From NCBI RefSeq assembly GCF_009914755.1, contig NC_060937.1: a stretch of 64,000 bases of DNA; one strand, 5' to 3'. This stretch comes from the human T2T-CHM13v2.0 reference genome, Homo sapiens. Below the pieces are notes generated by a model. That model was not told the origin of the DNA, ran no database searches, and was given only the letters and a program-made list of their open reading frames with translations. Shown here piece after piece: positions 4,611 to 57,849 of the stretch. Both the position numbers and the translations under genes were made by a program. The stretch's first letter is position 1, and each line of letters starts with the position of its first letter.

Positions 4611-7346
4611 ATAATTTAACCTACTCTTTCCTCTACTTCTCCAAGTAGACTTCATAATATATTTGCACAAAACGTACAGCATTTTTCACAATGAGAAATA
4701 TGTCTAGCTTCAGTCAAAGGAGCTAGAATTTACAAATGTGTTGGAAAGTCATCTCATAATTTTAGAGTGACTTTTGCCAAACCAAGTGTTGTGTGTATTG
4801 ATTTGCCTCCCTCTCTGCCACTGGACATTGCTGCTGTGTTTCTGACATGACGGCCATCCGTGACACAGAGGCAGGAAATCCATGAGGCATGGTGGCAACT
4901 CCACTCCAAGGGACTGCTTAAGGCGTTGGGTGTTATGTCCTGGTGGTGGAGGTGATGGGGGGTGAAGATGCAAAACAGAGGCATTAAATTTACCTTTTGC
5001 TATTGATTTTCCACAGAAATCTTATCTTGTTTTCCTAAATCCTTGGCTATAAAAAAGCTCATTATTTTTAAGTATTTCGTAAGAACCTAAGTCTTCTTTC
5101 CATGTTGTGTCCAGAAATTTTTTTTAGGGACAATTTGAGGAAATATTTTGTGAAATACAACGAGAAAGACCATCCCTAACTGCTCCTTACATAATAGAGC
5201 TTCTGGGGGCCGATGTTAGAAACATCCGATTATAAACTGTAGGCCTTTTGATTACTAAAGTATAATAATTAGATTATATAGAAATGTCCTTAACTATGGT
5301 GCTGAACGGAACAAAATAACTGGTAATTGGTCTCAACCAGAGTAAATAATGTCCTTCCTTTTATTTACATTTGGTTTTTCTATAAACTGCCTACTGGGTT
5401 GTGTGGAACTCAAGAGGCTAGCAAAAAACTGAATCCCCATCCATCAGTATTAATCTCACACTCTACTGTGGCTCCATCCATTTATCTTTCCGACACAAAT
5501 TAGAAATTCAAGAGTTTTAACAAATGAGCCTGCAAATGTAAACTTATTAGGCCATATATTTTTACTACACACTGTGCAGTGCTCTCCACAAAGCTGTCCC
5601 TTCAGAGAGCATTTTCCTATTTTGTGTTATTGATGGCAGCTAACTAATCACATTTTTAATGTTGTCTTTGGGGAGGGCTGTTTGAGTGAATGTGCAAGCT
5701 AAACTACCCAGAATAAATCTACCTTATTAAATGCTTGAAATTATGTGTCTTTTACGATAAAGAAACTCCCGAGCATTGTTACATTTGCTAACCTTCTTTT
5801 GCAGGAATCAAAAGACTGGGATTAATTAAAATAATACATCAAAACTGGGGTGTTGTACAGAATGTGTCTATGTGTGAGGAAAGGCCAAGAAAAATTGGTT
5901 AATTGGTCTCTTCATCCCTATTCACTCTCCTCCATCTAAATAGCTTTAAGTGTTGCTTTCTGAAATGGAACTACAATAACATGAGCTGGGGAGGAAGACT
6001 CACTCCAACTGTTCGCTAGACAATGGCTGGTCTCTACCCCACCACCCCTGCCCCCCAGAAATTCCTTCTGGTTGACACAGTGCATATTTGATTAACAAAG
6101 AACTTCAAAAAATTTGGTCCTTAGACTTGAATGCTTGAAAACACATAGGAAGCATAAATATATTGTGACCCTAGCATTGTATTTCATCTAAACAAAGATG
6201 CACTTATTTAAATGCCTCTGAATAATGTCATCTTTCACAAGTATCAAAAGAAAACATCTGGCAGGTAAATGCTTCCCTCAAAGCCCAGGTCTGCTTTTCC
6301 TTTAGCTATGATGGGCAATCTAACGGTAGGCCTCTCTCAGTCCTGGGTACAATCACTCCGCTATTGAGAGGTGGGCTAATTACTGGCAAGTCTTTTATTA
6401 CTGAGCTCAAGTACTAATCTGAGCCCCGAGTGCATCTGCTTTCTACTTCTCTGTAAGTTTTGCAGTCTCAGAAGCAAATGTAAATATGGCCACAATTCTG
6501 GGTTGTCACATAAATTTCAAGGGTAAGGAATGAGGTGTAAGCTTGAGTAGAGGGAATGGGATGGTTTGGGAATCAGAACTCTCAGTGGCACAAGTGGTAG
6601 AGAATTTGGACTCTATATCAGTACGTACCCTTCAGGACATAAAGACATGTAATAGTAATTTACCTAAAGGAAAAAAAAACGTTTGGAAAGTGGGAGGATA
6701 GAGTGAGAACTCAAATTTCTGCCAATTATTTTCCAGTTACTTGACTGTCCCACTTAAGAAGCAAGGCTTTTGTGAAACTGACATTTAAACACAATAAACA
6801 TATGCTAGTCATTGAAATTAAAGTCACAAGCATTTCAAGACCATGTAATAGACGGTTTTAGTGTTCCTCTGCAATCAGAGTTCCTCTCTTTTACTTAGCT
6901 TGGAGGAGAAACATAAACTTGATTAGCACTTAACTAAAGTATAATGGCTGATAAATTGTCCTTAATGTTTCAAAACTAGACAACTATGCTAAGGTTGCCT
7001 AGAAATTACTTCTTGACTACACAGACACACTCATTTTTTCTCACTAAGTCACAGGAATCAACAATTTAAGAACACACTGGCTTTCTTGAAGCATATTTCT
7101 TGTTTATCTTAGATTACTTAGAGTAATTATTTAACTGTTACATTTAGCAAAGGTGCAATCCAAAGAGAAAGACTGAAGAGGTAAAGAGTGTTATGAATGG
7201 CGGAGGTAAAATTCACTAGAAAAGTCTTTTGTATTGGAATTTGGCTTGAAAAATGCAAGAAAATGTTTATTTTGCTCACTCTGCAAATATTTACTGAGCA
7301 CCTATTACGAACTGAGTCAGATGCTGTTTACAGAAAGACAAAGATA

Positions 7347-54690: not shown

Positions 54691-55148
54691 AACAAGTAAA
54701 AAATTCAGTAGCAACTTAATACTAAGTAATATTTATAATTAAAATAATATTAATACTATGAATAATATAATTGTAAACCTAATTAATGTTGGTAAGATTT
54801 AATCTCCATTCTTTGGGATCACGCTGAAACATATTTGTCTTCTGATTCATTCAAAGCAACATGGCTTAAAACATTTTAAGTTCTAGGAAAACTGATTAGC
54901 TATTCATGGACTGAAATAAACAGAATATGTATTTTCAGTTACATTGTAAGGGAATTTTATAATTTTTGAAATATCAGGCTAAAACATACTAATCAAATTA
55001 TAAAGCCAAAAATCAGCATGGAGATTTAACTGGCCTTTGAAAGATTTACTTTCTTTGTAATACCTGTTTGGTGTAAAGAGAAGAAACGTGAGCCTCTGCC
55101 AATTTGGCACCTTTCACGACTACTAAAAAGAAAAGAAAACAAACTTAC

Positions 55149-56863
55149 CTAATGAATCAGAATAGCACATAGTCAACATACAAGAGACTACATAAAAATA
55201 GATCTTTGATTTAAATATATAAGTAAAAATAGTGACTTTTTGAGCAAAGTCACTATTTTGACAACTGAAATCTGATTTTGAAATTTTAAATATAAACGTA
55301 GACACGAATTGCAAGGCAAAGCATTTCTATGAAATAGTGTTACCATCAAGAAAATACACACAACTTCAACCCCAATTAGGGGTGTATGGGGAAGAAGAAA
55401 AAGAACAGCATCCTTAAGTTACTCCACTGGCAGAAGACTATGGTGGTGGTGGAACAACAGCTTTTGATTGTGAGGACCCCAATATGGAAGAAAGTAATTT
55501 TTTAAATGTGATTTTTTAATATTATCACTATAATCTCAAGAGAGGCAGAAACACTTGCAATCAAAATGATGAATTTGAAAATATAAATATGTAATCTCCC
55601 ACCCCCATTCTACAAAGAATGCATTTATTTCCTGGAAACTGCCATATCAACTTTCAATGATCATGTTCACTTGCAAAAGAAATCCACTTAAAAAAATCAC
55701 AGTATTGTTGCAAACATCAAAGATTTTTATACAAGTATAGGAAGTACACACTTAAAATATCAGACTGGAACACTTACCAAACAGTGTTTTCCTAAAGTAG
55801 TATCTATAGTACATTTCTTTATTCATATATCTTCAAATGGTCAAGTTTTCTTTCATACATCCAAAATGTAATGTGATGTTTTCTTATTCACCAAATGTTA
55901 GCTCTACTTGCAGTCTGGTTCCAAACTAATCAGCCTGCTTTTAAATTTTAAGACATTTGTTGAAAATTTATAGGATCAAACCAAACTCAAGTGGTATAAT
56001 TTTTAAACATTGGATTGTACATTATTGTAAGGGTACCAGTAACCATTATTATTAAGAATAAGTTAGTGATTATAGCTCCTTTTGTGATAATTGGGGGGAA
56101 GGGTAGATCACCATCTGGAATGGTCTATTTTAATTTTTTTCTTTTCTTTTTTCTTTTCTTTTTTTTTTTAAATCAAGGAACATTGTCTTGGCTTTTTTTT
56201 TTTTTTTTTTTTTGTCATTGCTTTTCTCTTTTCTTTCCTTTTTTTTTTTTAAAGAGACCATTCCACTTTATTATAACATCTGGATGCATAAGGACTCATG
56301 TAAAGCAGTCATACACCATTATCATTAAAACCCATATGGTAAAATACATACACAGTCCAACAAAAGGCTAATACATAGTAAAGCCTAAGCATACTACTAT
56401 GTAATATTATAATACATAACTTGGAGACTTTAGTTAGAGTACTATGTTATCTATTCAGTTTTGAAAACATTCATTAAGATTTTAAATGCAAATTCATTCC
56501 TTATTTGGAATAAAACAAAGTCCTCTAAGTTATAACAAGTATTGGTCATAAGTTTTCAGACCTATTCATTAAATTACAAAGAACCCAAAGAATTCTGTGA
56601 TGTCCAGTAGAAGTATGTAATAAAAACATTGCATATGTTTCTAGTGTGATGTCTTTAGCAATTGTTTACTGAAGTAAAATGCAAACATCAATCTTTCAAA
56701 ATACAAGATCAGAAGGTAGTTTTCTTCTTTTTTGTCTATTTGTGAAATCCATCTTCATCACATTTTACCAAAAATTGTTTTTACAAATATGTAAAAGTAC
56801 ATTAGATAATACTAATGAAACACAGGTAGAGTTCTAGCATATGTAGATCAATGATCAGTCAAA
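55149..56863 (-). other. RBM26: Proximal 3'UTR of RBM26 with several poly(A) signals
   Basis: Follows the stop codon; AATAAA (plus-strand tttatt) at 56267-56272, 55818-55823 and 55624-55629; the true 3' end cannot be fixed from sequence. Confidence 0.75.
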
Positions 56864-56953
56864 TCATCTTCTCCAAGAACGAGATTCATTGTCCTCTTCT
56901 TCTTCATCATCATCTTGAAGTAATGAGTCATCCACCAAAGACTCTTCCTGAAA
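56864..56953 (-). CDS. RBM26: RBM26 last coding exon (acidic C-terminus)
   Basis: aacctaaag|TTT CAG GAA... translates to FQEESLVDDSLLQDDDEEEEDNESRSWRR*; the acidic tail ending SWRR is characteristic of RBM26/RBM27. Confidence 0.92.
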   Translation of the reverse strand, partial: FQEESLVDDSLLQDDDEEEEDNESRSWRR

Positions 56954-57849
56954 CTTTAGGTTAAAATGTATTTAGGAATTTACCCAAAAAAAAAAAAAGA
57001 AAAGAAAAAAAAGGTGACACTTTTAAATACTCATCTCTCTCAACAGAGTTGAATACAAAAGGTATTTTTATAGCTAGAACATTCACAAAACAAAGAAAAG
57101 CAACATTTAACCACTCAATGGTTTCTCTATATGATCTATTCTATTGCTTGCATGAAACACACTAAACAAATATCAAATAAAGCCTTTGTACATGCCATTT
57201 TTTCCTGCCTCTCTTTAGCAAATTACGCCATCTTCTGTACCTTTAAAATATTGGTCAAACTTTTTAAAAAAGAAAACAGTAAGTTTTCTCTAATTTACCC
57301 TCCTAACCTTGAATACTAAAATCAACCAATGACTTGTATAAAATTCTACCAAGATTTATATTTATATTTATTTTCTGCTGTATGCAACAAACATTTTCTA
57401 TTATTGCATTCCTTTCTTTTCCCCATTCCCTTCATAAACACTTCTCAGACTGCTATTTCAAACTTTTCAAAATACCTAATACCAGGAGCTCTCCTGCTTT
57501 TCTCCCCATTCAATTCAAACTCATGGAAGGACAAAGGTATAATCTAAAATATAAAATGACAAATCATGTATATGAGTTTCAAAATATACATTTTTATTCT
57601 TGCATTTGACTATGGATATGTATAACAGCCTTGAAATGCTCTTCAAACAAAATGAAGTGCCATTATGAAGGTAAAACATGGAATTATTTAGTTTTCCCAC
57701 CTTACCTTTATTTATTAACTTAAACTTTTTCCTAAAGTTTATTTTGTGATTAAGTAAGAGTTGCTTACTTTTAAGTTTTTGGTTTCAAAGGCCTCTAACA
57801 CTTCACTGGCCCGTACCTCTTAGCCATCAGACTAACTGCTGTTACTCAA

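What the first reader, a model, noticed from the sequence alone, without database searches (positions are those of the whole stretch)
56116..56272. 11-bp stem clamps a ~128-nt A-rich loop immediately after an AAUAAA
Plus-strand tggaatggtct (56116-56126) and agaccattcca (56255-56265) are perfect reverse complements, extendable inward by UUUAA/UUAAA after a mismatch. In the mRNA the order is AAUAAA-G-UGGAAUGGUCU-[A-run, A21, A11GA4GA6GA4GA7 with short spacers]-AGACCAUUCCA. The stem starts 1 nt after the hexamer, places the expected cleavage zone at the stem/loop boundary, and displays a genomically encoded pseudo-poly(A) loop. No GU-rich downstream element follows this signal. A non-repetitive 11-mer inverted repeat sitting exactly at both edges of the A-block looks non-random.
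Basis: partly seen in the sequence, partly recalled or inferred. Interest (0 to 1): 0.8.

Follow-up and report, generated by a model that had tools for sequence, protein, structure and literature searches.

The report
Conserved A-loop hairpin in RBM26/RBM27 poly(A) sites
The hairpin holding a long A-rich loop just after an AAUAAA in the RBM26 3'UTR is real and is shared with the paralogue RBM27, where the mRNA is cut about 20 bases after the hairpin, so it looks like a structured polyadenylation site kept in both genes.

Summary
An 11-bp perfect stem (window 56255-56265 / 56116-56126, minus strand) closes a 128-nt loop that is 70% A, 1 nt after an AAUAAA. On its own this is not unusual. About 7 comparable 11-mer inverted repeats occur in the window. 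3 of 176 AATAAA carry such a stem. The folding z-score is -0.5.

The paralogue settles it. The RBM27 3'UTR on chr5 has the same layout: AAUAAA, 9 nt, a 12-bp stem with the same 9 outer pairs and paired changes in the inner pairs, a 64-nt A-rich loop, and a conserved downstream block. Only 11 places in the 3.1-Gb genome match the 9+9 arm pattern, and two of them are these UTRs.

A chr16 retrocopy of RBM27 carries the whole hairpin and switches to a poly(A) tail 18-22 nt after the 3' arm. That is 115-119 nt after the only canonical hexamer.

Best reading: a structure-bridged poly(A) site of the HTLV-1 kind with a conserved A-rich loop. This is shown for RBM27 and inferred for RBM26. A feedback role for the loop in these poly(A)-decay genes is plausible but untested.

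The parts
56267..56272 (-). Canonical AAUAAA hexamer, followed by G. AAUAAAG is invariant between RBM26, RBM27 and the RBM27 retrocopy.
   Evidence: alignment A4
56255..56265 (-). 5' arm of the clamp stem (mRNA sense UGGAAUGGUCU). The first 9 nt are identical in RBM27.
56127..56254 (-). 128-nt loop, 70% A and 82% purine, with A12, A21 and A11GA4GA6GA4GA7 blocks and a small non-A island in the middle. The RBM27 counterpart is 64 nt and 58% A.
56129..56134 (-). AUUAAA hexamer inside the 3' end of the loop. It is specific to RBM26. It lies 13 nt upstream of the end of the 3' arm, so it offers a linear alternative signal for cleavage just after the stem.
56116..56126 (-). 3' arm of the clamp stem (AGACCAUUCCA). 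The last 9 nt are identical in RBM27.
56093..56115 (-). RBM26-specific 23-nt spacer: a GU-rich stretch (GAUGGUGAUCU) followed by a C-rich stretch. RBM27 has only 3 nt here.
   Evidence: alignment A5
56055..56092 (-). Downstream block conserved with RBM27 (26 of 34 aligned positions identical). It contains the position homologous to the RBM27 cleavage site (CAC|AAAA, window 56084-56080) and a U-rich stretch.
   Evidence: cleavage position by homology
55787..55823 (-). Next poly(A) site downstream in the same exon: AAUAAA at 55823-55818 with cleavage at about 55791-55787. A chr17 retrocopy ends here in a short A tail, so this site has been used.

Best explanation
The stem and its A-rich loop belong to a poly(A) site inherited by both paralogues RBM26 and RBM27. 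The layout is AAUAAA, a short spacer, an 11-12 bp helix closing an unstructured A-rich loop of 64-128 nt, a cleavage site some 20-35 nt after the 3' arm, and a downstream U/GU-rich element.

Folding removes the 88-150 nt hairpin from the path. The hexamer, which is 115-187 nt upstream in linear sequence, then sits about 27-37 nt from the cleavage site, where CPSF and CstF can act together.

Shown here: the helix and the conserved layout in both genes, and cleavage after the hairpin in RBM27.

Inferred: that the helix is needed for processing; that RBM26 is cut at the homologous place to give a short-3'UTR isoform of its proximal terminal exon; and that the A-rich loop is a selected payload, probably a binding platform for nuclear poly(A)-binding proteins.
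For: 1. Paralogue conservation. RBM27 (L015 4688-4830) has AAUAAAG, then UGGAAUGGU..., an A-rich loop...ACCAUUCCA and a conserved block AUCAC(C)AAA.GAGCU.UAAU. The rest of the two 3'UTRs does not align. The neighbouring 38-aa coding exon is only 40% identical.

2. Rarity. The pattern TGGAATGGTN{40,150}ACCATTCCA has 11 places in 3.1 Gb, and the reversed control has 1. Two of the 11 are these 3'UTRs.

3. Paired changes keep the helix. Inner pairs are C-G and U-A in RBM26 against U-A, C-G and A-U in RBM27 (read).

4. Predicted stability. Pair probabilities are mostly 0.95 or more in both genes, and the stem is in the MFE and centroid of both.

5. Cleavage position. The chr16 retrocopy (L022 1501-1879, 93% identical) contains the whole hairpin. 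It changes to A12 right after ...AUCACC, where the parent has AAAAG. That puts cleavage at L015 4808-4812.

6. No nearer signal in RBM27. None of 16 hexamer variants lies 10-40 nt upstream of that site; the only AAUAAA is 115 nt upstream.

7. Annotation fit. RBM27 3'UTR extensions reported after TDP-43 loss begin at hg38 146289357, which is about L015 4946. The annotated distal end is therefore upstream of that, consistent with this site.

8. Similar effective distance. Spacers either side of the helix sum to 27-31 nt in RBM27 and 33-37 nt in RBM26, although the individual spacers differ (9+18-22 against 1+32-36).

9. Precedent. Bridging of hexamer and cleavage site by RNA structure is established for the HTLV-1 RexRE (passages in PMC3694450) and described as general (passages in PMC11870849 citing Wu and Bartel 2017).
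Against: No 3'-end data for RBM26 at this site were available. The RefSeq table given with the finding lists no transcript ending near 56080-56116, and the selected transcript runs through the element to 55111. A chr17 retrocopy shows that RBM26 transcripts reached the next site at about 55788, so the site is leaky at best.

RBM26 has an in-loop AUUAAA (56134-56129) that could drive cleavage just after the stem without any bridging.

The RBM26 downstream element is weaker than that of RBM27.

MFE z-scores are not significant (-0.51 and -1.70).

The covariation rests on two sequences only, and no other vertebrate genome could be searched.

The chr16 copy has no detectable target-site duplication (no shared flank word of 7 nt or longer). 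Its status as a retrocopy therefore rests on the A12 tail and the abrupt end of homology.

The hg38-to-T2T mapping assumes no indels across 3.3 kb.

A bridging helix does not need a long A-rich loop, so bridging alone does not explain the loop.
Confidence: 0.6

Rival explanations
1. Poly(A)-mimic feedback sensor. The encoded A tracts are the functional part. PABPN1, with RBM26/27, ZC3H14 or PAXT, binds the loop on nascent or nuclear RBM26/RBM27 RNA. That binding changes poly(A)-site or terminal-exon choice, or sends the transcript to the exosome, and so holds the level of these factors constant. The stem only presents or gates the tract. This can coexist with the bridging model.
For: A-rich loops are kept in both paralogues, with A12/A21/A11 in RBM26 and A10 plus A6 in RBM27. 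The loop sequences themselves are otherwise not alignable. RBM26/27 are PAXT components linked to PABPN1 (passages of PMC11788927 and PMC7049725). PABPN1 on poly(A) is reported to recruit RBM26/27 (review passage in PMC11802343). A-rich autoregulatory elements are known for PABPC1 (passages of PMC4691835) and PABPN1 (only the title of Bergeron 2015 seen). In isoforms that use the distal terminal exon 48087-51240/51243, the whole proximal exon, element included, would be intronic (inferred from the annotation table).
Against: No binding or expression data were seen. Four literature searches found no report of RBM26/27 self- or cross-regulation through the 3'UTR. Silla 2020 contains no 'compensat' or 'cross-regulat' wording. 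A runs are also prone to slippage and may expand neutrally inside a tolerated loop.
Confidence: 0.28
2. 3'-terminal stability or PABP-retention element. In mRNAs cut just after the hairpin, the clamped internal A tracts sit 20-35 nt from the tail. They could keep poly(A)-binding proteins on the mRNA, or slow 3'-5' decay after deadenylation.
For: The RBM27 mRNA end inferred from the retrocopy places the hairpin at the extreme 3' end. Structures at mRNA 3' ends are said to affect processing and stability (title and citing passages for Wu and Bartel 2017). PABPC1 binds genomically encoded A-rich sequences (PMC4691835).
Against: No half-life data were seen. This does not explain why the AAUAAA-stem spacing and the cleavage-site block are conserved together.
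Confidence: 0.12
3. Negative clamp. The stem starts 1 nt after the RBM26 hexamer and hides the canonical cleavage zone. It therefore suppresses a proximal site so that transcription continues to downstream sites.
For: RefSeq transcripts and the chr17 retrocopy read through the RBM26 element (annotation table). In RBM26 the helix abuts the hexamer with a 1-nt spacer.
Against: The homologous RBM27 site is used, with the hairpin retained in the product. RBM27 has a 9-nt spacer. Conservation of the downstream cleavage block argues for a working site.
Confidence: 0.1
4. No function: a chance inverted repeat around a slippage-prone A-rich low-complexity tract, or the remnant of a mobile element with terminal inverted repeats.
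For: Within the window such inverted repeats are common and the folding z-score is not significant.
Against: Arms, hexamer and downstream block are the same in RBM27, on another chromosome. Only 11 genomic places match the arm pattern, and the other 9 have unrelated, non-A-rich interiors in the part of each match that was printed. No multi-copy family was found. No direct repeats flank the arms.
Confidence: 0.04

Closest known systems
HTLV-1 Rex response element poly(A) site (Ahmed et al. 1991, as described in PMC3694450)
   Same: The AAUAAA lies far upstream of the cleavage site in linear sequence (115-119 nt in RBM27). A stable RNA structure between them is the obvious way to bring them together.
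   Different: This is a cellular gene pair, not a retroviral LTR. The structure is a single 11-12 bp clamp rather than an extensive multi-stem structure. Its interior is an unstructured A-rich loop. No protein such as Rex is known to bind it. Dependence on the helix has not been tested.
Structures between poly(A) signal and cleavage site in mammalian mRNAs (Wu and Bartel 2017; paper not held; only citing passages seen)
   Same: Folding that shortens a non-canonical hexamer-to-cleavage distance.
   Different: I could not check whether RBM27 or RBM26 is in their set. Conservation across paralogues, and an A-rich loop of 64-128 nt, are not features I saw described.
A-rich autoregulatory elements of poly(A)-binding-protein genes (PABPC1 5'UTR, PMC4691835; PABPN1 3'UTR, only the title of Bergeron 2015 seen)
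   Same: Genomically encoded A tracts in mRNAs of proteins that work on poly(A).
   Different: Here the tract is clamped in a hairpin inside a poly(A) site. RBM26/27 are reported to be recruited through PABPN1 rather than shown to bind poly(A) themselves. No feedback has been shown.
ENE / triple-helix 3'-end elements (MALAT1, PAN RNA; recalled, no call)
   Same: A structured element at an RNA 3' end that involves an A-rich tract and nuclear poly(A) decay pathways.
   Different: ENEs have a U-rich internal loop that clamps an A tract. Here the loop itself is A-rich and no U-rich partner is present.

Membership tests
Structure-bridged poly(A) site (HTLV-1 RexRE type) | The canonical hexamer lies well beyond the usual 10-30 nt from the real cleavage site | tested here: met
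   RBM27: AAUAAA at L015 4688-4693, cleavage at 4808-4812 from the chr16 retrocopy, giving 115-119 nt. For RBM26 the cleavage site is only inferred by homology (183-187 nt).
Structure-bridged poly(A) site (HTLV-1 RexRE type) | A stable helix between hexamer and cleavage site brings the effective distance near the canonical range | tested here: met
   This is an in silico test only. There are 11-bp and 12-bp stems in the MFE and centroid, with pair probabilities mostly 0.95 or more. The residual path is 27-31 nt in RBM27 and 33-37 nt in RBM26.
Structure-bridged poly(A) site (HTLV-1 RexRE type) | No alternative hexamer at canonical distance from the cleavage site | tested here: inconclusive
   RBM27: none of 16 variants lies within 10-40 nt. 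RBM26: AUUAAA at 56134-56129 lies 13 nt before the end of the 3' arm and could act linearly. The hexamer list was recalled.
Structure-bridged poly(A) site (HTLV-1 RexRE type) | Processing depends on the helix (disrupting and compensatory mutations) | not testable with these tools
   Needs minigene or in vitro cleavage assays.
Structure-bridged poly(A) site (HTLV-1 RexRE type) | A U/GU-rich downstream element after the cleavage site | tested here: met
   RBM27: GU/UG-rich sequence from L015 about 4820 to 4900. RBM26: only a U-rich stretch in the conserved block, plus GAUGGUGAUCU before it, which is weaker.
A-rich autoregulatory element of a poly(A)-binding factor gene | Encoded A tract long enough for a poly(A)-binding protein in the factor's own mRNA | tested here: met
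   A12, A21 and A11 in RBM26; A10 in RBM27. The length needed (about 10-12 A) is recalled.
A-rich autoregulatory element of a poly(A)-binding factor gene | The gene product, or its partner, binds the tract and changes the gene's own expression | not testable with these tools
   No CLIP or knock-down data were seen. Searches found no report.
ENE / triple-helix element | A U-rich internal loop flanked by helices that clamps an A-rich strand | tested here: not met
   Folds show a single helix with an A-rich loop and no U-rich internal loop. There is no Rfam match.
Mobile element with terminal inverted repeats | Many copies in the genome and target-site duplications | tested here: not met
   The element is single-copy apart from low-complexity matches. 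There are 11 arm-pattern places genome-wide. No direct repeats flank the arms.
Any Rfam family | Covariance-model match | tested here: not met
   No matches at E of 1 or less in window 55000-57000. Two sub-threshold chance-level hits in L015 4300-5200.

The most novel reading that the evidence does not exclude
The clamped A-rich loop is a genomically encoded poly(A)-tail mimic built into the poly(A) sites of both RBM26 and RBM27. When nuclear poly(A)-binding capacity is in excess (PABPN1 with RBM26/27, opposed by ZC3H14), proteins coat the loop. They then either pry the clamp open, which separates the AAUAAA from its cleavage site and forces read-through or a terminal-exon switch, or recruit ZFC3H1-MTR4 to destroy the transcript. 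This would be one cis-element setting the dosage of both PAXT paralogues and explaining their redundancy.
Probability: 0.2. Interest if true: 0.85.

Novelty: new variant of a known kind. Interest (0 to 1): 0.62.

Why it matters
RBM26 and RBM27 are the partly redundant RNA-binding arms of the PAXT nuclear poly(A)-RNA decay connection. They are also reported to act in poly(A)-tail-dependent splicing of terminal introns.

An island of 3'UTR conservation shared by the two genes, made of a poly(A) signal, a covarying clamp helix and an encoded A tract, gives a concrete and mutable cis-element for asking how cells set the level of these factors. It is also a natural cellular example of a poly(A) site whose hexamer is more than 100 nt from the cut.

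There is a practical point too. The A21, A12 and A11 runs will attract oligo(dT) internal priming, and 3'-end pipelines will tend to filter real ends here. That may explain why the RBM26 site is not annotated.

The RBM27 site is the one that is read through when TDP-43 is lost (PMC12586162).

Tried and rejected
1. Whole-element MAFFT alignments of RBM26 against RBM27 put the gap in the wrong place because the loops differ by 64 nt. The count of structure pairs, RNAalifold and a covariance model were therefore not run. The arms were aligned as two halves instead and the pairs were read directly.

2. Thermodynamic significance: z-scores of -0.51 and -1.70 are not significant.

3. Homology upstream of the hexamer is not significant: 123 of 500 shuffles reach the score.

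4. Rfam gave nothing.

5. The target-site duplication search for the chr16 copy found no shared word of 7 nt or longer.

6. No retrocopy of RBM26 ends at the element. The only other genomic copy of the last exon is the chr17 fragment downstream of it.

8. Wu and Bartel 2017 and Bergeron 2015 are not held. The supplements of PMC12586162 give novel RBM27 ends only, not the annotated end.

9. The PAP-gamma/PAXT preprint has no CLIP, A-rich or feedback wording.

10. Cross-species conservation could not be tested, because no vertebrate genome other than the window's own is reachable.

11. A DNA-level reading was considered and set aside. The arms contain GGAATG/CATTCC, which I recall as a TEAD-type motif. 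The paired changes beyond that motif and the strand-specific A-richness fit an RNA helix better.

Full report
**1. The observation**

The window's + strand carries TGGAATGGTCT at 56116-56126 and its exact reverse complement at 56255-56265. RBM26 is on the minus strand. In the mRNA the order is AAUAAA (56272-56267), one G, the 5' arm, a 128-nt loop and the 3' arm. The loop is 70% A, with blocks A12, A21 and A11GA4GA6GA4GA7.

The stop codon of the proximal terminal exon is at about 56864-56862, so the element lies roughly 590 nt into the 3'UTR. The stem is present in the MFE and centroid folds of a 211-nt stretch. Its pair probabilities are 0.66-1.0 in a 457-nt context.

**2. Is it more than chance on its own? 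No.**

- The window has 27 overlapping perfect 11-mer inverted-repeat pairs with a gap of 200 nt or less. Nine have complex arms, which is about 7 separate loci.
- 3 of 176 AATAAA hexamers on both strands are followed within 12 nt by a perfect inverted repeat of 9 bp or more with a loop of 200 nt or less.
- The MFE z-score is -0.51.
- There is no Rfam match.
- The stretch is single-copy in the 3.1-Gb assembly apart from low-complexity hits.

**3. The paralogue**

I located RBM27 on contig C5 with the penultimate RBM26 coding exon and fetched 10 kb (L015). Its stop codon is at L015 1617-1619. About 3.07 kb into its 3'UTR the same layout appears:

- AAUAAA at 4688-4693
- a 9-nt spacer
- a 12-nt arm at 4703-4714
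- a 64-nt loop that is 58% A
- the complementary arm at 4779-4790
- 3 nt
- a block that aligns with the RBM26 sequence downstream of its stem

Half-alignments make this explicit. AAUAAAG and UGGAAUGG are invariant in A4. ACCAUUCCA and AUCAC.AAA.GAGCU.UAAU are invariant in A5. The downstream block is 26 of 34 identical, and only 3 of 500 shuffles reach its score. Sequence upstream of the hexamer is not significantly similar (123 of 500). Nothing else in the two UTRs aligns.

The nine outer base pairs are identical. The inner pairs differ on both strands so that pairing is kept: C-G and U-A in RBM26 against U-A, C-G and A-U in RBM27. The RBM27 stem is in the MFE and centroid (z = -1.70), with pair probabilities of 0.73-1.0.

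Genome-wide, the pattern of 9-nt arm, 40-150 nt and 9-nt arm has 11 places, and the reversed control has 1. Two of the 11 are these UTRs, one is satellite, and the rest have unrelated interiors in the part of each match that was printed. By my arithmetic, the chance that one of about 10 stray hits lands in a 3.2-kb UTR is about 1e-5.

RBM26 and RBM27 have single orthologues in fission yeast and nematode, and a fly counterpart is named in the passages seen. The adjoining 38-aa exon is only 40% identical between the two human genes. The duplication is therefore old. Dating it to the vertebrate genome duplications is my inference. An island of identity with covarying pairs in otherwise unalignable UTRs indicates selection on an RNA helix.

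**4. Where the RNA is cut**

A search with 2 kb of the RBM27 3'UTR found one other copy, on contig C16. It is 93% identical over L015 4437-4812 and contains the complete hairpin. Exactly after ...AUCACC, where the parent reads AAAAG, it continues as A12 and then unrelated sequence. This is the signature of a retrocopied polyadenylated RNA. No target-site duplication could be found, which is a caveat.

It places cleavage at L015 4808-4812. That is 18-22 nt after the 3' arm and 115-119 nt after the hexamer. None of 16 hexamer variants (list recalled) lies 10-40 nt upstream of that point. GU/UG-rich sequence follows it.

An independent hint comes from a study of TDP-43 loss. [quoted passage not shown] The first novel end, hg38 146289357, maps to about L015 4946 if the last-exon start 146285947 equals L015 1536 and the assemblies are colinear. 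This is consistent with the annotated end being the site just described.

**5. Mechanism**

With the hairpin folded, the path from hexamer to cut is 9 + 18-22 = 27-31 nt in RBM27. At the homologous position in RBM26 (CAC|AAAA, window 56084-56080) it is 1 + 32-36 = 33-37 nt. The sums are similar although the spacers differ.

This is how the HTLV-1 Rex response element is described as working (PMC3694450). A recent review, citing Wu and Bartel 2017, describes the same thing as a general way to rescue suboptimal spacing (PMC11870849). I therefore read the element as a structure-bridged poly(A) site. This is shown for RBM27 up to the position of cleavage and inferred for RBM26.

Against the reading for RBM26:
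- The annotation supplied lists no transcript ending here.
- The selected RefSeq transcript runs on to 55111.
- A chr17 retrocopy of window 55787-56092 shows use of a downstream AAUAAA site (hexamer 55823-55818, cut at about 55791-55787). That retrocopy has a 9-nt target-site duplication, a later Alu insertion and a short A tail.
- RBM26 also has an AUUAAA inside the loop, 13 nt before the end of the 3' arm. With the GU-rich GAUGGUGAUCU just after the arm, it could work without bridging.

Either way the predicted short isoform would end with the whole A-rich hairpin.

**6. The loop**

Bridging does not require 64-128 nt of A-rich sequence, yet both paralogues keep it. RBM26/27 act with PABPN1 in PAXT. 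According to a review passage, they are recruited by PABPN1 bound to poly(A) to promote splicing of weak terminal introns. RBM26 itself has an alternative distal terminal exon (48087-51240/51243; acceptor checked), so processing at the proximal exon decides the isoform.

A-rich self-regulatory elements are known for PABPC1 and PABPN1 (title only). A feedback role for the loop is therefore a reasonable and testable idea, but nothing I could run bears on it. Four literature searches found no description of this element.

**7. Verdict**

The proposed cleavage at the stem/loop boundary and the 'missing' downstream element are not supported. The element is best filed as a new variant of a known kind: a structure-bridged poly(A) site that carries a conserved A-rich loop and is shared by two paralogous poly(A)-decay factors.

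Noticed in passing
window 55787-56092; L010 1088-1680 (contig C17): A chr17 retrocopy of part of the RBM26 3'UTR, 97-98% identical. It is flanked by a 9-nt target-site duplication and interrupted by an Alu whose own 17-nt duplication shows as an overlap of the two matches. It ends in a short A tail. Its 5' end (window 56092) coincides with the start of the block conserved with RBM27, 8 nt before the inferred cleavage position. This may be chance 5' truncation.
   Followed up: partly
window 55787-55823: AAUAAA at 55823-55818 with cleavage at about 55791-55787, shown by the chr17 retrocopy. No transcript in the supplied RefSeq table ends here.
   Followed up: partly
window 55223-55262: A 17-nt inverted repeat, 94% complementary, with a 6-nt loop (repeat finder I2). 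It would form a strong hairpin in the RBM26 3'UTR about 110-150 nt before the RefSeq transcript end.
   Followed up: no
window 55111-55150: By eye I saw no AAUAAA or AUUAAA in the 60 nt upstream of the RefSeq 3' end at 55111. An AGGUAAGU that looks like a 5' splice site sits at 55150-55143 and is followed by a pyrimidine tract and AG. The annotated end may not be a true poly(A) site.
   Followed up: no
L015 4820-4900 (RBM27, contig C5): A UG/GU-rich tract, including a UG repeat, lies just downstream of the RBM27 cleavage site. RBM27 is reported to gain 3'UTR extensions in TDP-43-depleted cells and TDP-43-negative neuronal nuclei (PMC12586162). This would fit TDP-43 binding here to promote use of the hairpin site. 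The TDP-43 binding preference is recalled.
   Followed up: partly
L022 1501-1888 (contig C16): A retrocopy of the last about 376 nt of the RBM27 mRNA, 93% identical, with an A12 tail and no detectable target-site duplication. Its 5' arm carries a T-to-C change that breaks one stem pair, as expected for a copy no longer under selection.
   Followed up: yes
window about 30243, minus strand: Another AATAAA followed 3 nt later by a perfect 12-bp inverted repeat closing a 127-nt loop. It lies outside any annotated gene. I used it only as a chance control.
   Followed up: no
window 56907-57543: The 'other transcript' exon 56907-57543 does not end at a GT donor; the sequence after 56907 reads UG. It is probably the end of a truncated or intron-retaining model rather than a splice junction.
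   Followed up: partly
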